From Candidatus Latescibacterota bacterium (lineage in GTDB: Bacteria > Latescibacterota > UBA2968), in assembly GCA_965198115.1 (NCBI GenBank), contig OZ240241.1, positions 8,128,001-8,192,000 on the forward strand: a stretch of DNA of 64,000 nt. The letters are read 5' to 3'. Positions 1,873 through 11,515 of this stretch are shown piece after piece. A program made the position numbers and the translations under genes. Position 1 is the first letter of the stretch; each line of letters starts with the position of its first letter. The notes below the pieces were generated by a model. The model was not told the DNA's origin, did no database searches, and saw nothing but the letters and a program-made list of their open reading frames with translations.

Positions 1873-2797
1873 GGGGGCCCGGCTCGATCAATTCGTAGCC
1901 GAGCACTGCGACAGCCTGTCGCGTTCCTCCGTCCAGCGTCTGATTGCGGCTCAGTCCGTGCGAGTCAACGATCGATCCCGGCGTTCGAGCCACCGGCTGC
2001 GTGCGGGTGATGAGGTCCAGGTGACGCTGCCCGCGCCCACGCCGTCGGATATCGTTGCCGAGCCGCGTTCCCTTGACATCGTTTATGAGGACGAGCACTT
2101 CCTCCTCGTCAACAAGCCGGCAGGCATGTCGACGCACCCGTCTTCGACTGAATACACGGGCACGCTCGTGAACGCGCTCCTGGCTCATTGCGAGCTGTCG
2201 ACAATCGGACGACCGCTGAGACCCGGTGTCGTTCATCGACTCGACAAGTCCACGACCGGTCTTCTCGTCGTGGCGAAAGACGATACGACCCACCACGCAC
2301 TTTCCGCACGACTGGCGGATCGCAACATCCAGCGTGGGTACGACGCGCTCTGTTGGGGGCATCCCGGGGAGGATGAAAGCGGGGAGATCGACGCGCCGAT
2401 CGGGCGCCATCGGCGGGATCGGACGAAAATGGCCGTCGACCGAGAGGGTCGGGAAGCGATGACACGCTACCGCGTGTGTGCGCGCTACGATTTTCTGTCG
2501 CGACTGGAGCTACAACTCCAGACCGGACGCACGCATCAGATTCGTGTACATTTGGAGCACATTGGCCACGCTGTGTTCGGAGACCCCGTTTATGGCGGTC
2601 GAGAGAAGCGGCTGAAGGGGATTACACCGATGTTTCGCGCCGACGCCGGGCAGCTGTTGAAGCTGACCGATCGGCAGATGCTTCACGCCGCGAGGCTGGA
2701 ATTCGACCATCCACATACGGGAAAGACGATGATGTTCGAGGCGGAGCTGCCGGAGGACTTTCAGACGGTAGTGGAGAAGCTCGAAGCAGGAGGGTGA
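1817..2797 (+). CDS. rluD: RluA-family 23S rRNA pseudouridine synthase (RluD-like)
   Basis: S4 domain, VNKPAG, HRLDKSTTG catalytic motif, TGRTHQIRVH. Confidence 0.9.
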   Translation: MAQHEPNEPWTMEVPATFEGARLDQFVAEHCDSLSRSSVQRLIAAQSVRVNDRSRRSSHRLRAGDEVQVTLPAPTPSDIVAEPRSLDIVYEDEHFLLVNKPAGMSTHPSSTEYTGTLVNALLAHCELSTIGRPLRPGVVHRLDKSTTGLLVVAKDDTTHHALSARLADRNIQRGYDALCWGHPGEDESGEIDAPIGRHRRDRTKMAVDREGREAMTRYRVCARYDFLSRLELQLQTGRTHQIRVHLEHIGHAVFGDPVYGGREKRLKGITPMFRADAGQLLKLTDRQMLHAARLEFDHPHTGKTMMFEAELPEDFQTVVEKLEAGG

Positions 2798-2862
2798 AGC
2801 GTGGCCGGCCGATGACGAAGCGTGTTCAGTGTTCAGGAAAAACGGCGACGGTTATAAAATAG

Positions 2863-2897
2863 AAGGGGCCCGCTACGTTGTGCGAGGGCCCCTTTTT
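2863..2897. terminator. Probable bidirectional intrinsic terminator between convergent rluD and the ParB-like gene
   Basis: AAGGGGCCC...GGGCCCCTTTTT inverted repeat. Confidence 0.7.
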
Positions 2898-2919
2898 CTA
2901 TTGTGACGGTGATTTGGAT

Positions 2920-3537
2920 TCAAATGTGGGGGGCTTCGCCGTTCTGGATTCGGTCGACCATGGATTCGACGTCCTCGATGGGCGGGTCGTTTTCCCGGAT
3001 ATACCGGAAGAGACGGGTTTTGTCACTGTCGTACTCGAGTCGGGATAGAGCCAGGGCACGTCGTTCGTCGATTTCGCCCGTTCGAACGGCCTCCCGAATC
3101 GGGGGTGGTAGCCGATTGAACCGGCGTGCTATGGCGGCCTCCTCTTCCTTCAGTCCAAACCGTGTCGCCAGTTCCTCGTTGGGAAGATGGAACACGTCGG
3201 CACGGCGGAGGAAGTCGACTTCGTCGGCGATGTTGACGCTGTGCGTCTGGAGGTTGGACTGGAAGGCCAGCTCACGGGCGCGTTCCTCGGAGACACGGCG
3301 AACGATGGCGGGAATGGTTGGCATGCCGAGTCGCAGGCACGCCTCGACGCGACGCTGGCCGATGACGAGTTCGTAACGACCGTTCTCGACGGGTCGAACG
3401 ACGATCGGGTCGATCACGCCGTAGCGCTCGATGGACTTGATGAGTGTCGTCAGGTTTTCGGAATCGAGCCTCTGCCGGATCGTCAACTTTCGCGTGTCGA
3501 TGTGTGCGGTCGGGATTTCAAGCAGAGCGTCGGGCAC
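2920..3537 (-). CDS. Divergent ParB/Srx-fold protein (N-terminal CTPase-like domain, degenerate HTH, no C-terminal dimerisation domain)
   Basis: SIERYGVIDPIVVR, YELVIGQRRVEAC (GxRR), LPPPIREAVRTGEI..RRALAL; GAGGAG RBS before GTG. Confidence 0.8.
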   Translation of the reverse strand: MPDALLEIPTAHIDTRKLTIRQRLDSENLTTLIKSIERYGVIDPIVVRPVENGRYELVIGQRRVEACLRLGMPTIPAIVRRVSEERARELAFQSNLQTHSVNIADEVDFLRRADVFHLPNEELATRFGLKEEEAAIARRFNRLPPPIREAVRTGEIDERRALALSRLEYDSDKTRLFRYIRENDPPIEDVESMVDRIQNGEAPHI

Positions 3538-3576
3538 CGATCGGGCTCCTCATCGTTCTGACAGTCGTTGTCAAAG

Positions 3577-3614
3577 AAGAAAGCCCAAAGCCCGCGGGGA
3601 GCTTTGGACCTTTT
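3577..3614 (-). terminator. Possible terminator or processing hairpin between the mamK-like and ParB-like genes
   Basis: Minus strand AAAGGTCCAAAGC-loop-GCTTTGGGCTTT followed by CTTCTTT. Confidence 0.45.
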
Positions 3615-3645
3615 CCTACAGTGGTTGGCGATGATATCGACGAGA

Positions 3646-4737
3646 TCAGGCGGACGTCCATTCCGATTCTGGCATGTCCTGGGCGAGTCGAAGCGCACCG
3701 AGGGCGCCAGCGTAGACGGGATCGTCGACAACCGTCACCCGCGCTGGCCCGAACTCGGCGAGATCGGATTCGATGACGACGGGGAGGCCGCGAATCTGGC
3801 TGCCCCCACCGGCGAGGACGATGTTGTTTCGGAGCTCATCCTGGAATTCGGGTTCGAACGTGGTGATGAGCTCGCGGATCGACGCGAGTGTGTCGGGTAG
3901 AACATCCTCGCACGCCGCTTTGAGCTCTTCGGCGATGTTGTAGAGGACGGCCTTGCCTTCCACCTGAAACTCCACGCTGATCCCTTCGGTGATGGGCGAG
4001 ACGAAGGCGTAACGCTCTTTGATCGACCTGGCCTGGTTTAACGAGATGGGGGAGTCCTTGACCTTTTCCTGGAGCAAGCCGTGGAATTTGTCGTCGATGA
4101 AGCTTCCGGCCTTGTATAGGGTGCGCTGGTCCTCGTCTTCAGGGATCGTGCCGTGCATGCGACAAAGGTCGAGCGTTCCGGCGCCGATGTCGACAACGAG
4201 AGCGTTGTTGTAGAGCCCGAGTCCATAGGCGACTAGGAAGGGTTCGGAGACGACCATGACGGAGTCGACGAGATCCTGGATCACGTCGATGATGGCCTGT
4301 TTGTCGTTCTCGCTCGCGAGCGCGGGGGCGCCGACGACCGCACGGACAGCCTGATTCGGTCGAATTTCGGCCAGTTCGACGACGTGGCGAACCAATTCGC
4401 GTACGGCCTCGACCTCCCGATTGTCGCCTGCCATCGCACCCGGCTGGGGCCGATACCGGAGCACGCCCTTTTCCAAAGGGTAGAACAGATCGAGGGCCAT
4501 CCGGTTGCGGATGCACTCCTCTCCGTAGACGATCGGTTTCTGCAGGAACTTGTAAGCGATCAGATCCTTGGGCCATCCAACGACGCTGGGAACGGTTCGT
4601 GTGACATCGGTGCTGGTCGCAACGGAGCTGTTGGCCGTTCCCAGATCGATGACCATGTAGAGCACATCCTGTGCTGGCGCCGGGGTCTCCTGAATGCGTT
4701 CCGAAGACGCGCGCTCCTGTCCGGTCTCCTCCGGCAT
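3646..4737 (-). CDS. mamK: Actin-like ATPase, MamK subfamily
   Basis: Actin motifs IDLGTANS, VDIGAGTLD and LAGGGSQI; MamK-type segments SVVGWPKD, LDLFYPLEKGV, SEPFLVAYGL and HGTIPEDEDQRTLYKAG; GAGGAG RBS before ATG at 4737. Confidence 0.8.
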   Translation of the reverse strand: MPEETGQERASSERIQETPAPAQDVLYMVIDLGTANSSVATSTDVTRTVPSVVGWPKDLIAYKFLQKPIVYGEECIRNRMALDLFYPLEKGVLRYRPQPGAMAGDNREVEAVRELVRHVVELAEIRPNQAVRAVVGAPALASENDKQAIIDVIQDLVDSVMVVSEPFLVAYGLGLYNNALVVDIGAGTLDLCRMHGTIPEDEDQRTLYKAGSFIDDKFHGLLQEKVKDSPISLNQARSIKERYAFVSPITEGISVEFQVEGKAVLYNIAEELKAACEDVLPDTLASIRELITTFEPEFQDELRNNIVLAGGGSQIRGLPVVIESDLAEFGPARVTVVDDPVYAGALGALRLAQDMPESEWTSA

Positions 4738-4753
4738 GTTCGACAACTCCTCT

Positions 4754-5104
4754 TCAGTGAGACTGCAATTCGATGGTGATCGGGGCCGTGTCGGTCTCGT
4801 CGTCGGCTGACTCTTCCGAGCTCGAGGGTGTTTCGGGGGGAGGCGTGACGGGTAGACTGGCCTCTTTGACGAACGTTTCTACGATTTGTGTTCGGCGGAT
4901 TCGAAAGCGATCGGCGATGCCACCGGGAATGGCGTGTGGCTCGCTCCTGGGTTCAATCAGCCCGATCCGTGGTGTGGGGGCCACATCCGGTGGGTCGGGG
5001 GGGATCGGGGCGGGCCCATCCGTCCCATCGGGTTCACCTTCGACTCGGCGGCGCCCCTCGACTGCTTCGTTCAATACTTGGTCTGTGAGTGATCGGATGG
5101 ACAC
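4754..5104 (-). CDS. Small Pro/acidic-rich, probably disordered protein (116 aa) directly upstream of the mamK-like gene
   Basis: GTG lies 1 nt after the TPR gene stop; MSIRSLTDQVLNEAVEG...PAPIPPDPPDVAPTP...PPPETPSSSEESADDETD; fills the gap to the mamK RBS exactly. Confidence 0.6.
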   Translation of the reverse strand: MSIRSLTDQVLNEAVEGRRRVEGEPDGTDGPAPIPPDPPDVAPTPRIGLIEPRSEPHAIPGGIADRFRIRRTQIVETFVKEASLPVTPPPETPSSSEESADDETDTAPITIELQSH

Positions 5105-5105
5105 G

Positions 5106-5991
5106 TTAGATCGACTTTTTGAAGAACTCGATCGCTTTGTTGTGCTCGCCCTTGTGTTCGTAGGCGAGCCCGAGACTCTGGTGGATGCCGGGGTGAGCAG
5201 GGTCGAGTTCGACGACGCGGTTGAACGACGTGATGGCGTCGTCGAAACTTCCGCGGGTGTTGTGAACACTCCCGAGTCGGAAATGTGTTTCCGCGTTTTC
5301 GGGTTCTTCGTTCGTTGCCTCGGTCAGACAGCGAACCGCCTCTCCGTAGTTCTCGGTCCGTGTGTAGACTTCGGCCAGTTTGTAGTAGGCCGGGAGGAAG
5401 TGCGAATCGATAGCCATGGCGCTTCGGAGCGCTTCGATGGCTTCTTCGAAAATCGCCGTTGTTGTCGGAGGCGACTCCGAGCTTGTAGCAAGCCGAAGCC
5501 GTACGGTTCAGGTCGACGAGCTTTTGGAAAGAAGCGATGGCCTGCGGATAGTCGCCCTTGTTCTTGTAATTGACCCCGAGATGATCGTGGATCTGCGCCA
5601 GATCCTCACGACCCAATCCAAAGATGTCCTCGAAGAAGGATACGGTCCGATCGGACAGCTGCTTGGCGTAGAGCAGGAAGGTGTAACATGTGCTTTCGAA
5701 GGCGTCGAGCCTCCGTTCGATCCGGTCGAGTCGCGCGAGGACGTCGTCGTCGCCGGGCGAATCGTCGGAGCCTTCGAGGTCCCACTCCTGCGGGAGGCGT
5801 TCTCCGGTGATCTGCGGTGTTGAACTCACGCTGCGTGGTCCTCCGGCGGCCGAGGGGTCGACCTTCCCCACGTATTCGTTGAGAATCTGCTCCTGACGGC
5901 CGCGCTTTCGCTGGCTTCGGGCGATGGCAGGTGTGTCGGGAACAAGGGAGCTTGAACCGACGGCATTCTGGTCTGAGTCTCGGTCGGTCAC
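5106..5991 (-). CDS. MamA-like TPR protein (~294 aa) with a +1 frameshift at the A4 run, 5449-5452
   Basis: Removing one base joins ORFs 5071..5991 and 5106..5417 into ...NNGDFEEAIEALRSAMAID..., giving five TPR units; the YAKQLSDRTVSFFEDIF helix and HFRLG...FDDAITSF...AYEHKGEHNKAIEFFKKS tail resemble MamA. Confidence 0.65.
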
Positions 5992-6985
5992 GATTCGTCC
6001 TTGGTGACCGCGACACGGCGGTCGTAAGACAGGGAACCCGATCGGACAGATATGTGTGACGCCTTGCGATAATTCTCCGCCCGGCTTAAGCTATTCGCAA
6101 AATAGGCAGAATCGTTTCAATACGGTTAACAGTGGAGACCGTTCCCTAATGAGTTGAGGGTCACCTAAGATCTGGCGGCCATGCGACATAGTGCCATAGG
6201 AGTACTTACAAGGCGCAACGGCCAAAAGCGGTTGTCGGACCTACGCCTGATGTCCCTTTCTTTACGCGAACGCGTTTGGCACATTCCGGGGGATCGGGAC
6301 GCGAAACGCTCTCGATCTCCGACGGGTCCGCCATCGGCAGCACCGCCAGGGAGACGGCCGATTTTCTACCCCGCTTCGCCATTTTCGGGAAGCAGCTTCA
6401 AAGCCGCCTTGTCGACAGACGCAAGCTCTTGTTTTTGCACTGGTTTAAGTGTTTCCGACACCTGAAACCCCCCCTTTCGTCGACAACGGCCGCGATGCGC
6501 CCCCCGGAACGAAAATTAGGACGTTTTAGTAGAAGAAACGGTCCACTTACCGGTGTCCAAAAAAAGAGAGCTGACCGTTTCCACCCCCCCTACCCCCCTA
6601 GTGCGGGCCTCGGGCCAGCGATGCGCCCAGGGCCAACACCGCGCACCCCCTATGCCCGCTGGGACCTGGCCTGGCCACGTCTTGAGCCTAATCGGTCGAA
6701 ACGCGCTATTTTCGCGGTTCGAGAGCCTACTTCTCGCGCGTGTGGGAAAATGAAAAGGGCGCGGTCTACATCGGGACGCCCAGAGAGTTCATCCTCCCTT
6801 ATCTCCGGTCGTCAGTTCTTGGTGCGTGAGAATGCGAATAGCGTTGTCTGGGCGGGAATTTATCGTAAGCCGTAACAAGATATGGGCGGGGTCGTTCGGG
6901 GCCCTTAGGATCGGGCCCGATGGTGCAGGGGGAGGTGTTGGGGGAGCGCCCTGGCGTGAGCCGTAGAGGGCGCAAAATCACGACG

Positions 6986-7015
6986 AATATATGGGCATCC
7001 CAACAGCCAAGTCAA
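6986..7015 (-). promoter_or_regulatory. Sigma70-type promoter facing into the 1.1 kb intergenic region
   Basis: TTGACT-N18-TATATT on the minus strand. Confidence 0.5.
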
Positions 7016-7062
7016 GCGCTATTTTCAGGTATTACAAGGACATTTGGGCATGTTGGAGCACG

Positions 7063-7101
7063 GAAAAGGGGTGTCGAATTCGTTCGCATTTCGACACCCC
7101 T
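7063..7101 (-). terminator. Intrinsic terminator of the ferredoxin gene
   Basis: AGGGGTGTCGAA...TTCGACACCCC followed by a T-run on the minus strand, ~20 nt after the stop. Confidence 0.75.
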
Positions 7102-7121
7102 CAGACGGGTTCGCGTTTAAA

Positions 7122-7853
7122 TTAGAGACTGTTCGCGGGTAGCCCGTAGGCCTCCTCGACCTGGTCTGTGTCGACCATCTCGATGGCCTCCCAAGGACAG
7201 ATTTTGACGCATTGGACGCAGCCGATACAATCGGCGAGACGTACCTCGCAAAATGTCCCGATGCCGTCGAGGCCGGCTTCGTTCACGTCCACCTCTTCGA
7301 TGCAGTCGGTCGGGCACACTTCGATGCAGGCATTGCAGCCCGTACAATAGTCGGGGTTGATGATGGCGATGATCTTGGGGCGTCGCTTCTTCTCCGTCAT
7401 TCCCGACCGCGATTCGAGCCAGAGGTAGTCGTGATAACCGATCCGTCCGTAGTCGGAGAATCGCTCGGGCCAGTAGGCGCCCGTTCGCGGGGCGAATATG
7501 AATTCCCCTTCGGTGTGGGCGTGACTCAAACGATAGCGATCGGCGGTGATCAATTGGTCGGGATCGTCGTCGTAGACGAAGCTGATAAGGTCGTAGCGAA
7601 CGGAGACGATGCGGGCGGCCCTGTCTCGCCACTTGAAGTGGGTACCCGGCAGAAATTCGAGCACGGGCATGGCCTGGCGCTCTTCCTCGACTGCCTCGGT
7701 CGTCGCCGGTCCAGCCTGTGCGGTTGCTGCCGCCGGAGAGGCGTCGGCGCTGGCCCCACCTTCCCGGTTGGCCTTTCGAACGGCATCGGCCTTGGCTTTT
7801 GCCCGCTCCACACGATCGGTAATGCCATCGAACTGTGACAGGTCTACGTTCAA
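7122..7853 (-). CDS. 2[4Fe-4S] ferredoxin with an N-terminal DRVERAKAK motif and an unknown middle domain
   Basis: CTGCNACIEVCP and CIGCVQCVKICP; upstream TTGACA-N17-TATCTT at 7902-7930 (minus strand). Confidence 0.85.
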   Translation of the reverse strand: MNVDLSQFDGITDRVERAKAKADAVRKANREGGASADASPAAATAQAGPATTEAVEEERQAMPVLEFLPGTHFKWRDRAARIVSVRYDLISFVYDDDPDQLITADRYRLSHAHTEGEFIFAPRTGAYWPERFSDYGRIGYHDYLWLESRSGMTEKKRRPKIIAIINPDYCTGCNACIEVCPTDCIEEVDVNEAGLDGIGTFCEVRLADCIGCVQCVKICPWEAIEMVDTDQVEEAYGLPANSL

Positions 7854-9018: not shown

Positions 9019-9173
9019 GGCGAGCCAGTGGTATAGAATTGAATCAAGTCCTATGTTTTCAATGACTTCCGACGAATTCGAACCGAGCCCGGGAGGGGTG
9101 GTTCGCCACTTCTCTCCGCAGGTCGAGGCACCCCCGCCTCCACCCCAGGTTCTGCTCTCCGCCCGACCACTAA

Positions 9174-10435
9174 GTGCATGGTTTAATAAATATTATTACG
9201 TATGTCTTGAACATTATTTGTAGCTTATGTTCTCCTTCAAAAGGAGGAGAACAATGCCAAGACGTTCGCCTTATGTGGTGCTACTGTCTGAGAAGGAACG
9301 GGTCGACCTCGAGCGAATGGCTGGACAATATACGTTACCGTATTATCAAGTGATCCGATCGAAAATCGTGCTTCTCGCCGCCGAGGGATTATCCAACAAG
9401 ATTATCGCCCAACGGTTGGATGTCCCGCGTCCGATCGTAAGCAAATGGCGTAAGCGCTTTTTCGAAGAGCGTCTTTCGGGACTCGAAGATAGATCTCGTC
9501 CCGGGCGCCCGCCCGGTTTTCCCCCCTCAGGTGGTCGTTCAGATCAAGGCGCTGGCGTGTGAACTACCGAGCGAGAGCGGGATACCGCTCTCGCGGTTCA
9601 GCTGTTCCGAGATTGCCGCCGAGGCAGTGCAAAGGGGCTTCGTTGCCAAGATCAGCGGCGCCACTGTCTGGCGCTGGTTGAACGAGGACGCGATTCGTCC
9701 TTGGTATCATCGCTCCTGGATTTTCCCACGGGACCCGGACTTCCAAACCAAAGCAGGTAGAGTCCTTGATCTGTATCACCGCCAATGGCAAGGAAAGCCT
9801 TTAGGGCCGAGGGAATATGTACTTTCTGCCGACGAAAAGACCAGTATTCAAGCACGAGCTCGCAAGCACGTTACCCTACCGCCAGCCTCGAACAGAGCGG
9901 CACGCGTTGAAACACGAATACGAGCGGAAAGGAGCCCTGGCCTATCTGGCTGCTCTCGACGTGCACAATGGTCGAATCTTCGGTCTCTGTGAGTCTTCTT
10001 CGGGTATCGAGCCCTTCAACCGGCTCCTGAGCCTGATCATGAGCCGGAAACCCTATTGCTCGGCAAAGAAAGTCTACCTCATCGTGGATAATGGCTCCTC
10101 GCACCGAGGGCAAACATGCATCGACCGTATCCAGGGGAAGTGGCCAAACATCCACCCCGTTCACCTTCCGATCCACGCAAGCTGGCTCAATCAGATCGAG
10201 ATCTACTTCTCGATCCTCAAACGCAAGGCTCTGACACCTATCGAATTTGCATCGCTCGAAGAGCTTGAGGCAAGAATCCTCGGTTTTCAGGAACGCTACG
10301 GACGTATCGCCACACCCTTCAAATGGAAGTTTACACGAACAGATCTCGCGGAGATGATCGACAAACTCAGGTTCTACGATACGCCCTTGGCAAAGTCTGC
10401 TTATAATACGTCACCGTATTTGAGAACAGGAGTAC
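9174..10435 (+). mobile_element. IS630-family insertion sequence; transposase from 9254, split by frameshifts at ~9520 (TTTTCCCCCC) and ~9911
   Basis: HTH followed by DDE motifs (ADEKTSIQA, IVDNGSSH, HASWLNQIEIYF); imperfect terminal inverted repeats; TAA duplicated at 9171-9173 and 10436-10438. Confidence 0.88.
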
Positions 10436-10516
10436 TAAGCCAGATTTCACGCAAGCCAGAAGCCAACCAGATTTCTCCCGTGCGTCCTGGCGTGTCGCAG
10501 ATCCGGAGACAGACGT

Positions 10517-11515
10517 ATGTCTGAAGAAATCGATCTTTCGCAGTTCGATGACATTCCCGATCGCGTGGAACGGGCGAAGGCCAAGGCTGAGGCCATTCGA
10601 AAGATGCGAGAAGGTGACGACAGCGAAGCGCCCGCCCCAGAGCCTGCGCCGGCACAGGAGCCAGCGGCCGAGGCCGAGAGCCCCGAACCCGCTGAAGAAC
10701 CCGCGCCCGTAGCGAGCGCGTCAGAAGGAGGCGAGGGCGAGGTCGACCTGACCGAGTTCGACCATATCACCGATCGCGTCGAACGTGCCAAGGCCAAGGT
10801 GGAAGCGATGCGCAAAGCCGGTGGCGGCGGTGGCGTGGCTGCTTCGGGCGCGGCTCCGGCCAAGAAGGCACCCGCCAAGAAAGCCGCGAGCGCGGCCGAC
10901 AGGGCAGCAGCGGCTCGAGCTCTGACGGAAAAGGGTGACGGCCCGGGACAAGTGATCGTTCAGACGACACCCGCACCCCCCGACATCCGTCCGGGTCCCG
11001 AACGCATCGTTCCGATTGCGTCGGGCGGCATGACGACGCGACGCGGTTTTTTCTCCTGGTTGACGCTTGCGTGGGTGTCATTCGCGGCAGCCTCGACGGC
11101 CGCGCTGGCCGCGACGGGTCGGTTCCTTTTCCCAAACGTCCTGTTCGAGCCGCCACAATCCTTCAAGATCGGGTTTCCCGAAAACTACGATCTGGGTGTT
11201 GACGAACGATGGAAGGATAAGTTTTCGGTTTGGATCGTGAAGGAAACGGAACAGATGTATGCCCTGATTTCGGTCTGTACGCACCTGGGGTGCACTCCAA
11301 ATTGGCTCGCCGGCGATCAAAAGTTCAAATGCCCTTGCCACGGGAGCGGTTTTTTCAGTACGGGCATCAACTTCGAAGGTCCGGCCCCGCGTCCCCTTGA
11401 ACGTGCGCGAATCGTACTGTCCGAAGACGGACAAATCCTGATCGACAAGAACTCGAAGTACCAGTGGGAAAAGGGACAGTGGGAAAATCCTGAGTCCTTC
11501 CTCAAGTTGATCTGA
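10517..11515 (+). CDS. petC: Rieske [2Fe-2S] subunit of a cytochrome bc/b6f-type complex with a long N-terminal extension
   Basis: CTHLGC and CPCHGS boxes; Tat motif TRRGFF plus a TM helix after ~170 aa of extension. Confidence 0.92.
   Translation: MSEEIDLSQFDDIPDRVERAKAKAEAIRKMREGDDSEAPAPEPAPAQEPAAEAESPEPAEEPAPVASASEGGEGEVDLTEFDHITDRVERAKAKVEAMRKAGGGGGVAASGAAPAKKAPAKKAASAADRAAAARALTEKGDGPGQVIVQTTPAPPDIRPGPERIVPIASGGMTTRRGFFSWLTLAWVSFAAASTAALAATGRFLFPNVLFEPPQSFKIGFPENYDLGVDERWKDKFSVWIVKETEQMYALISVCTHLGCTPNWLAGDQKFKCPCHGSGFFSTGINFEGPAPRPLERARIVLSEDGQILIDKNSKYQWEKGQWENPESFLKLI

What the first reader, a model, noticed from the sequence alone, without database searches (positions are those of the whole stretch)
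3646..5991. Stand-alone mamA-like / adaptor / mamK-like operon without biomineralisation genes
Seen: three tightly packed minus-strand genes encoding a TPR protein, a 116-aa Pro/acidic protein and an actin, lying between housekeeping genes and a respiratory cluster, with no integrase, tRNA or transposase at its borders. Knowledge (recalled, not searched): the actin segments SVVGWPKD, LDLFYPLEKGV, SEPFLVAYGL and GTIPEDEDQRTLYKAG are MamK-type rather than MreB-type. The TPR protein's pre-TPR helix and C-terminal repeats resemble MamA, the cytoplasmic coat of magnetosome vesicles. No mamB/M/E/O/Q/I/L/P or feoAB is present in these 64 kb. Inference: only the scaffold and positioning parts are kept, so this may be a filament-plus-coat system that positions a non-magnetic organelle or membrane domain, or else a split or relic magnetosome cluster.
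Basis: partly seen in the sequence, partly recalled or inferred. Interest (0 to 1): 0.88.

Follow-up and report, generated by a model that had tools for sequence, protein, structure and literature searches.

The report
Magnetosome-free actin operon of swimming bacteria
A non-magnetic bacterium carries four linked genes (an actin related to the one that lines up magnetic organelles, a repeat-protein scaffold, a flexible linker and a ParB-type protein predicted to be catalytically dead) that in its relatives occur only where flagellar genes occur, so they likely form an internal positioning track tied to swimming, which this strain is losing along with its flagella.

Summary
The unit has four genes, not three: a short ParB-fold gene follows the actin. 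The TPR gene is broken by a frameshift that sequencing-run contigs confirm. An 823-bp mobile element sits between promoter and first gene.

The actin is MamK-type (398.9 bits, cut-off 400; MreB 61) but branches apart from the magnetosome-cluster MamKs sampled. The complete genome shows no MamB/M, MamQ or MamP match. The TPR protein has MamA architecture but is not shown to be MamA.

In 132 genomes of the class (Latescibacterota-like), the four genes are kept or lost as a block and are under strong purifying selection. All 30 actin carriers have flagellar genes; none of 82 genomes without them carries the actin. The reverse fails: 20 flagellated genomes lack it. The ParB-like protein lacks a catalytic glutamate, the clamp domain and the usual DNA-recognition residues, so it resembles the adaptor PadC. 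This strain has also broken its flagellar genes.

Best reading: a non-magnetic actin positioning track tied to swimming, decaying here; the cargo is unproven. This scan noted the same operon on other genomes before.

The parts
6986..7015 (-). Sigma-70-like promoter of the operon (TTGACT-N18-TATATT)
   Evidence: 10 of 12 matches. The same pattern lies 182-274 nt before the TPR start in 7 of 10 related loci checked; here it is 1025 nt away because of the insertion. Function inferred.
6055..6877 (.). 823-bp mobile element with TGT...ACA ends and a 7-bp target-site duplication (6048-6054 and 6878-6884), inserted in the operon leader; strain-specific
   Evidence: 9 other full-length copies at 90-99% identity plus interrupted copies, 34 hits in all. 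Read depth 140-305 against 5-9 for the operon. Absent from the matching site in G001.
5106..5991 (-). TPR protein with MamA-type architecture (disordered N-tail, conserved pre-TPR helix, TPR repeats); broken here by a frameshift at 5452-5449
   Evidence: The halves match the MamA model at 9-90 and 87-199; the C-terminal half is the best of 92 matches in the genome. Close relatives P0155 and P0162 (86-88% identical) are intact 294-aa proteins. The break is present in run contigs.
4754..5104 (-). 116-aa disordered Pro/acidic linker with three conserved short motifs (N-terminal helix, central IPGG motif, C-terminal ITIEL motif); sits directly upstream of the actin, as MamJ does
   Evidence: Conserved at this position in 10 related loci aligned. 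No Pfam or atlas hit. The central motif recurs upstream of the actin in sister-clade loci L097 and L104.
3646..4737 (-). MamK-family actin-like ATPase, 363 aa, intact
   Evidence: NCBIfam MamK 398.9 bits (cut-off 400), BeeR 194.6, MreB 61. PDB 5LJW E 8.5e-86. Motifs DLGT31, EP165, DIGAGT183, GGGS310. dN/dS 0.025 against L057.
3580..3612 (-). 14-bp hairpin with a U-rich tail between actin and ParB-like gene; likely lowers ParB-like output relative to the actin
   Evidence: A long hairpin (-19 to -54 kcal/mol for the spacer) occurs here and in 7 of 9 related Latescibacterota loci, but not in the 2 sister-clade loci. Function inferred.
2920..3537 (-). Short ParB-fold protein, 205 aa (ParB_N + HTH-like domain). 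It has no N-terminal ParA-binding motif and no C-terminal dimerisation domain; catalytic glutamates and recognition-helix residues are replaced
   Evidence: Found in 11 of 132 class genomes, always beside the actin and in addition to the canonical ParB.

Best explanation
The four genes likely encode an actin-based positioning track for non-magnetic cargo tied to flagellar swimming: the MamK-type actin would polymerise into a dynamic filament, the disordered linker would tether it, the MamA-like TPR protein would coat the cargo or membrane patch, and the short ParB protein is predicted to be a CTP-binding, non-hydrolysing adaptor of the PadC kind rather than a DNA clamp. Shown: gene content and order, block-wise presence or absence, purifying selection, no magnetosome-gene matches, nesting inside genomes with flagellar genes, loss of the catalytic and DNA-recognition residues of ParB, and decay in this strain. 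Inferred: filament formation, every binding step, and the cargo. The most likely cargo is the flagellar pole or base, or a membrane domain that must be placed for swimming; chemoreceptor arrays are unlikely because no CheW was found. In this strain the system is probably being switched off: the TPR gene is frameshifted, a mobile element splits the leader, and the flagellar genes are broken.
For: Actin identity. Separate from cluster MamKs: clade of 17 rows at 98% and cluster clade of 8 rows at 100%; same split; 42-47% identity to 14 cluster or cluster-like MamKs. No magnetosome genes. Block behaviour among 132 class genomes: the actin in 12 genomes of families f1-f3, the TPR in those 12 plus fragment G082, the short ParB in 11 of the 12 (the twelfth contig ends after the actin), and a clean deletion of all four genes in same-genus G001. 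Selection: dN/dS 0.005-0.055 against L057, 0.05-0.19 for TPR, actin and ParB against L018 (synonymous sites near saturation). Flagella: 50 of 132 genomes have flagellin or FlhA; all 30 actin carriers are among the 50 and none among the other 82. Within genus g31, the 3 carriers are exactly the 3 of 10 with a flagellar marker; in g8 the carrier has flagella and the non-carrier has none. Co-decay here: 5 of 7 flagellins broken, the hook-associated FlgL-like gene in three frames, FlhA not found, while only the TPR was split among 24 matched reading frames of L018. ParB: the glutamate of GERR is replaced in 23 of 23 sequences and that of ENLQR in 16 of 23 (some rows are near-duplicates). PMC8494293 (passages read) shows that E78Q or E111Q abolishes CTP hydrolysis and that PadC lacks both. 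Linker position: in MV-1 a barely similar gene directly upstream of mamK works as a MamJ-like adaptor (PMC10653835, section 7 read).
Against: 20 of the 50 flagellated genomes lack the actin. G001 keeps an intact FlhA and has deleted the operon, and genus g24 has 8 of 8 flagellated but 1 of 8 carriers, so the system is not needed for flagella. Kin are not independent, and both traits may be lost together simply in streamlined or sessile lineages. G082 has the TPR gene at a contig end and no flagellar marker (80% complete, 820 contigs). The operon is not next to flagellar genes; it lies between rluA and a ferredoxin, 39-45 kb from the canonical parB in the 5 genomes where both share a contig. 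The 18 carriers of family f4 gave no match to the TPR or short-ParB profiles; in the f4 loci displayed, a coiled-coil gene follows the actin instead, so the partners are exchangeable. The MamA assignment is unproven. No RNA or imaging data exist.
Confidence: 0.45

Rival explanations
1. It is a positioning track for some other cytoplasmic body (microcompartments, storage granules, a membrane domain for the neighbouring respiratory complex), and the link to flagella only reflects joint loss in lineages with relaxed selection.
For: MamK and MamA organise membrane vesicles, not motors (established knowledge; PMC7602337 passages). The operon sits beside a ferredoxin and a Rieske/cytochrome b/c cluster in the f1-f3 loci displayed. 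G001 lost the operon but kept FlhA.
Against: Microcompartment shell genes are present in carriers and non-carriers alike (5 of 5). The respiratory cluster stays when the operon is deleted (G001). No gas-vesicle match in 5 genomes, but that control was silent. None of 82 genomes without flagellar markers keeps the actin.
Confidence: 0.27
2. It is an accessory chromosome-organising scaffold: the actin filament and short ParB anchor the origin region or ParA, as the bactofilin-PadC scaffold does in Myxococcus.
For: ParB fold. The operon lies 39-45 kb from canonical parB in 5 genomes. In the sister clade the same actin, linker homologue and short ParB are followed by a ParA-receiver fusion and a protein with an LG-containing N-terminal motif (L097, L106). 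PadC recruits ParA to a cytoskeleton (PMC12704722 passages).
Against: The recognition helix is acidic in all 23 short ParBs, the clamp domain and ParA-binding motif are missing, and a canonical ParB is present. No ParA gene lies in the Latescibacterota operon. It does not explain the nesting within flagellated genomes.
Confidence: 0.2
3. It is a leftover or detached piece of a magnetosome cluster without an independent function.
For: A MamK-type actin and a MamA-architecture TPR occur together. Greigite-type clusters are reported from Latescibacterota (PMC7449369 and PMC7602337 passages). The operon is broken in this strain and the actin frame is interrupted in L021, L027 and L028. Some sister-clade loci have FeoB, DtxR-like, HtrA (MamE model 236 bits) or PDZ genes nearby (L096, L112, L114), so some of those organisms could be magnetotactic.
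Against: No MamB/M, MamQ, MamP, MamN or Mad28 match in the complete genome. No LemA-family gene in 8 of 8 other f1-f2 carriers. Strong purifying selection and retention across three families. The actin is outside the cluster MamK clade sampled. An origin from a magnetosome-associated module remains possible; present lack of function does not fit.
Confidence: 0.08

Closest known systems
MamK of magnetotactic bacteria (PDB 5LJW, 5JYG, 5LJV; NCBIfam NF040964) with MamJ-type adaptors
   Same: Full-length match, E 8.5e-86; 398.9 bits against a cut-off of 400, and 21 of 30 carriers pass it; nucleotide-binding motifs kept; a disordered acidic gene lies directly upstream.
   Different: Own clade apart from cluster MamKs; no magnetosome genes in the genome; followed by a ParB-fold gene; the linker has no detectable family match.
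MamA (PDB 3VTX, 3AS4/5, 3AS8; NCBIfam NF040959)
   Same: Pre-TPR helix plus TPR repeats covering model positions 9-199 of 204 in 9 of 9 intact orthologues tested; 3VTX is the best MamA chain in the PDB search, 84.7 bits.
   Different: 127-166 bits, below the cut-off of 200; an extra disordered N-tail of about 90 aa; designed and eukaryotic TPR proteins outscore MamA in the PDB search; tree unresolved; not in a magnetosome cluster.
PadC of Myxococcus xanthus (ParB-fold adaptor on the bactofilin scaffold; PDB 6RYK); also ParB and Noc
   Same: ParB fold with the GxRR arginines kept and the catalytic glutamate(s) missing; encoded with a cytoskeletal protein.
   Different: Closer in sequence and fold to Noc and ParB (29-34% identity) than to PadC (22%); keeps an HTH-like domain; no ParA-binding motif; its neighbour is an actin, not bactofilin.
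BeeR (Verrucomicrobiota actin, PDB 8R2N; PMC11929497, first of two parts read)
   Same: A MamK-related actin in non-magnetotactic bacteria with a disordered N-terminal extension and unknown function.
   Different: 194.6 bits against a cut-off of 530; our protein is much closer to MamK; no such operon is described in the part read.

Membership tests
MamK (magnetosome actin) | Actin fold with intact nucleotide-binding motifs | tested here: met
MamK (magnetosome actin) | Reaches the NCBIfam MamK subfamily cut-off (400 bits) | tested here: inconclusive
   398.9-399.3 bits here; 21 of 30 carriers pass
MamK (magnetosome actin) | Branches inside the clade of magnetosome-cluster MamKs | tested here: not met
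   Separate supported clades. The cluster MamKs came from metagenome loci with verified mamB/M/P neighbours. No named Proteobacterial MamK was in the tree; the AU test did not finish.
MamK (magnetosome actin) | Genome encodes core magnetosome genes (mamB, M, Q, P, E, O, I) | tested here: not met
   CDF, LemA, MamB and MamP searches and tblastn with cluster proteins gave nothing beyond generic HtrA, FeoB and HEAT hits. mamI and mamL were not tested with a named model; the magnetochrome search had a silent control.
MamK (magnetosome actin) | ATP-dependent double-stranded filament | not testable with these tools
   Needs purified protein
MamA | N-terminal helix followed by five TPR motifs | tested here: met
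   Model positions 9-199 of 204 covered in 9 of 9 intact orthologues; only 6 of 32 distant TPR proteins start at position 17 or earlier. Definition from PMC4482739 passages.
MamA | Reaches the NCBIfam MamA cut-off (200 bits) | tested here: not met
   127-166 bits; generic TPR proteins score 83-183
MamA | Groups with MamA rather than generic TPR proteins | tested here: inconclusive
   The 4 best single-domain hits among 52 distant proteins are MamA-sized and MamA-shaped but unnamed. The tree is unresolved. A profile of the pre-TPR helix alone does not detect them.
MamA | Encoded in a magnetosome cluster and coats the magnetosome membrane | tested here: not met
   No cluster in the genome; coating itself is not testable here
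Canonical ParB / Noc DNA clamps | Catalytic glutamates of GERR and ENLQR | tested here: not met
   First replaced in 23 of 23, second in 16 of 23 (residues defined in PMC8494293)
Canonical ParB / Noc DNA clamps | C-terminal dimerisation domain, ParA-binding motif and parS-recognition helix | tested here: not met
   200-224 aa; all three are present in the genome's canonical ParB and absent or replaced here
MamJ | Sequence similarity to the MamJ N- and C-terminal domains | not tested
   No MamJ sequence was at hand. No NCBIfam hit for the overlapping window frame and no Pfam hit for the 116-aa protein. Only position and composition agree.

The most novel reading that the evidence does not exclude
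This is a surviving form of the pre-magnetosome job of MamK and MamA: an actin track, a TPR coat, a disordered tether and a hydrolysis-dead ParB CTP switch that place the motility apparatus in flagellated, chemoreceptor-free bacteria, and that magnetotactic bacteria later recruited to line up magnetosomes.
Probability: 0.15. Interest if true: 0.9.

Novelty: new variant of a known kind. Interest (0 to 1): 0.62.

Why it matters
MamK is used as the marker gene for magnetotactic bacteria (PMC7449369), and MamA and MamK are counted as core magnetosome genes. Here 21 genomes pass the MamK cut-off with no sign of a magnetosome cluster, which is a warning for marker surveys. More importantly, the operon gives a small testable system for an open question: what these two proteins do without magnetosomes, and where the chain machinery came from. 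An actin paired with a predicted hydrolysis-dead ParB-fold protein was not described in any paper that my searches returned. The best material for experiments is an intact relative, since this strain's copy is decaying.

Tried and rejected
Complex prediction of actin with linker: no answer (score 0.12, mark 0.32), so no evidence either way.

Sequencing runs: no RNA holder listed.

The protein atlas gave no usable hit for the linker. Rfam gave no match in 2700-7200.

Frameshift as an assembly error: my first guess, rejected.

Split magnetosome cluster: rejected. The magnetochrome and gas-vesicle searches had silent controls and are inconclusive.

Chemoreceptor arrays as cargo: CheW not found in 5 of 5 genomes, 4 of them carriers, with the control ringing in 8 of 14. 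Microcompartments do not track the operon.

Horizontal island: rejected, since the flanks are the same in the f1-f2 relatives displayed and the mobile element is a later insertion.

The crude 'broken gene' flags mixed paralogues and were replaced. The Fisher tests are not used as probabilities because kin are not independent.

The likeness between the TPR N-tail motif and the sister clade's Lys-rich protein is only suggestive (scores 10-13, reached by 0.05-0.25% of 6000 background frames). The linker's N-terminal motif did not rank the sister-clade proteins among the top 28.

The AU test did not finish. No named MamA or MamJ sequence could be obtained for trees, and no structure of the TPR protein was obtained. 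A parS-like scan found only two relaxed matches, far from the operon.

Literature searches returned no description of this operon. Subscription papers are not covered and no supplements were read; the tables of PMC7449369 may list such non-cluster MamK sequences.
Full report
Setting. The window is part of a single 8.43-Mb contig rated 100% complete. The nearest titled loci are labelled Latescibacterota, Gemmatimonadetes/Gemmatimonas or simply 'bacterium', so the assignment to Latescibacterota is inferred. The titled loci overlap with some handle genomes and are not counted twice.

Observation. The three genes exist as described. The actin (4737-3646) scores 398.9 bits on the MamK model (cut-off 400), 194.6 on BeeR and 61 on MreB. 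It matches solved MamK at E 8.5e-86 and is the only MamK-like gene besides an ordinary MreB. The 116-aa gene is real: a protein with the same short motifs lies at the same place in 10 related loci. The TPR gene changes frame at a run of four T (5452-5449). Relatives at 86-88% identity read through as 294-aa proteins. Contigs of two runs of one sample match 2700-6083 without a mismatch or gap, so the break is in the reads.

Two things were missed. A 205-aa ParB-fold gene follows the actin. An 823-bp element with terminal TGT...ACA and a 7-bp target duplication sits 64 bp before the TPR start; the genome holds 9 more full-length copies. It separates the gene from a promoter-like sequence that is conserved in 7 of 10 relatives checked.

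No magnetosome cluster. The genome has no CDF transporter (control 14 of 14), no LemA/MamQ-family gene (control 6 of 14), and no MamB or MamP match. Proteins from metagenome loci with MamK beside cluster genes (mamB/M, mamP, mamQ, mamN or mamE models matched in L118, L125, L127, L134, L136) gave only generic HtrA, FeoB, DtxR and HEAT hits. Across the carriers, MamP matched 0 of 31 and the best CDF scored 141 bits on the MamB model, against 199-258 for four cluster-linked CDFs. The magnetochrome search had a silent control, and mamI and mamL were not tested with named models.

Distribution. Thirty of 168 phylum genomes carry the actin, all within one class of 132. Twelve genomes of families f1-f3 have the four-gene form. 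The TPR occurs in those 12 plus one fragment. The short ParB occurs in 11 of them, always beside the actin and in addition to canonical ParB. Same-genus G001 has deleted all four genes, leaving the first codons of the TPR gene. The 18 carriers of family f4 gave no match to the TPR or short-ParB profiles; in the f4 loci displayed, a coiled-coil gene of about 180 aa follows the actin. Against L057 the genes show dN/dS of 0.005-0.055 (dS near saturation), so the unit was under strong constraint until recently.

Trees. In a 114-row FastTree and a 43-row IQ-TREE mixture-model tree, the actin falls in a supported clade with the f4 type and with actins from other uncultured lineages (one source name is 'bacterium SM23_31'), apart from the cluster MamKs. 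Identity is 76-88% within the four-gene type, 57-63% to f4, 50-54% to the sister clade, 42-47% to cluster MamKs and 25% to MreB. No named Proteobacterial MamK was included and the AU test did not finish. In sister-clade loci L097, L104 and L106 the actin is again followed by a short ParB; L097 and L106 go on to a Lys/Glu-rich protein and a ParA, fused to a receiver domain in L097. L097 and L104 carry an upstream protein with the linker's central motif; these are the top non-family hits, reached by 0.02-0.05% of background frames. So linker, actin and short ParB are the older trio and the TPR protein is a lineage-specific partner. One caution: L096, L112 and L114 lie near FeoB, DtxR-like, HtrA or PDZ genes, so some sister-clade organisms may be magnetotactic. 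I claim absence of magnetosome genes only for the genomes searched.

Is the TPR protein MamA? Intact orthologues cover the MamA model from 9 to 199 of 204 (9 of 9) but score 127-166 against 200. Score alone does not discriminate, because generic TPR proteins reach 83-183. Coverage of the pre-TPR helix does: only 6 of 32 distant proteins share it. It is MamA-shaped; membership is not shown.

The ParB-fold protein. The model folds like Noc and ParB. The glutamate of GERR is replaced in 23 of 23 sequences and that of ENLQR in 16 of 23. The recognition helix carries acidic residues. The ParA-binding motif and C-terminal dimerisation domain seen in the genome's canonical ParB are missing. PMC8494293 (passages) reports that either substitution stops CTP hydrolysis while binding remains, and that PadC lacks both residues. 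PMC12704722 (passages) describes PadC as a CTP-binding adaptor on a cytoskeleton; the term MamK has 0 occurrences in its main text. I infer an adaptor, not a sliding clamp. A conserved hairpin between actin and ParB-like gene would keep it scarcer than the filament.

What is it for? Flagellin was found in 48 and FlhA in 45 of 132 genomes, 50 with either. All 30 actin carriers are among the 50; none is among the other 82. The pattern repeats inside genera g8 and g31. This genome is losing both traits: 5 of 7 flagellins are broken, the FlgL-like gene spans three frames and FlhA is not found, while neighbouring genes are intact (the flagellar breaks were not checked against reads). Against a direct role: 20 flagellated genomes lack the actin, G001 dropped the operon and kept FlhA, and joint loss under relaxed selection could give the same nesting. 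CheW was absent from 5 of 5 genomes tested, and microcompartments occur regardless of the operon. In Magnetospirillum, MamK is reported to bind an MCP-like protein (PMC7175107 passages), a precedent for a link to motility though not for this cargo.

Mechanism proposed. ATP-driven filament (inferred from family), tethered through short motifs of the linker (inferred from position; compare the MV-1 adaptor in PMC10653835, section 7), with a self-associating TPR scaffold marking the cargo surface (inferred from MamA) and a CTP-bound ParB-fold dimer as adaptor. Cargo tied to swimming: 0.45. Another organelle or membrane domain: 0.27. Chromosome scaffold: 0.20. Functionless relic: 0.08.

Novelty. 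MamK homologues in non-magnetotactic bacteria are known in general: PMC7449369 kept 227 of 2798 MamK-like hits after checking for other mam genes (passages), and BeeR is a distant example (first part read). Nine searches returned no paper on this operon; PMC12748827 and PMC7602337 were seen as passages only, and no supplements were read. Earlier notes of this scan describe the same four-gene set on other genomes; my four-gene reading was set down before I opened them. New here are the nesting within flagellated genomes, the residue-level case for a dead ParB, the sister-clade operon with ParA, and the read-supported decay. Verdict: new variant of a known kind, interest 0.62.

Noticed in passing
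window 9170-10439: An insertion sequence with a split transposase-like reading frame (IS630-like by recalled resemblance, not tested) and at least 54 near-full-length copies above 99% identity in those displayed; a recent expansion.
   Followed up: partly
window 6055-6877: Family of 823-bp elements with TGT...ACA ends and 6-7 bp target duplications and no clear transposase frame; some copies are interrupted or nested.
   Followed up: partly
G000:C1 flagellar loci (288-290 kb, 369-376 kb, 1094-1097 kb, 2509-2510 kb, 7550-7557 kb): Flagellar system in decay: 5 of 7 flagellins broken, FlgL-like gene in three frames, FlhA not found. Many flagellated genomes of this class carry 3-8 flagellin matches, yet CheW was found in none of 5 tested.
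   Followed up: partly
L029-L055 (family f4), e.g. L030:2557-3093: Second operon type: the same actin clade followed by a coiled-coil protein of about 180 aa with a hydrophobic N-terminal stretch and no family match.
   Followed up: partly
L097:482-7422, L104, L106, L107, L112: Sister-clade operon: response regulator, SH3/coiled-coil membrane protein, linker homologue, short coiled-coil protein, actin, short ParB, Lys/Glu-rich protein, ParA fused to a receiver domain (complete only in L097).
   Followed up: partly
L112:17641-20981; L096:1-1016; L114:2349-4478: HtrA, PDZ and CxxC-rich genes, FeoB and DtxR-like genes near sister-clade actins; may mark magnetotactic or iron-handling organisms.
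   Followed up: partly
window 7122-7853 and 10517-11515: The ferredoxin and the Rieske protein share a short N-terminal motif, present twice in the Rieske protein and conserved in relatives; possibly a docking or targeting peptide for the respiratory cluster.
   Followed up: no
P0185-P0218: A clade of MamK-related actins with N-terminal extensions of 150-880 aa (proteins up to 1232 aa), unnamed in the three looked up.
   Followed up: no
whole genome G000: No cation-diffusion-facilitator transporter at all in an 8.4-Mb genome, although all 14 control genomes have one.
   Followed up: no
L021, L027, L028; P0032, P0084, P0172: The operon is interrupted at different places in other genomes (actin frameshifts or an internal deletion, TPR-linker fusion); some may be assembly errors.
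   Followed up: no
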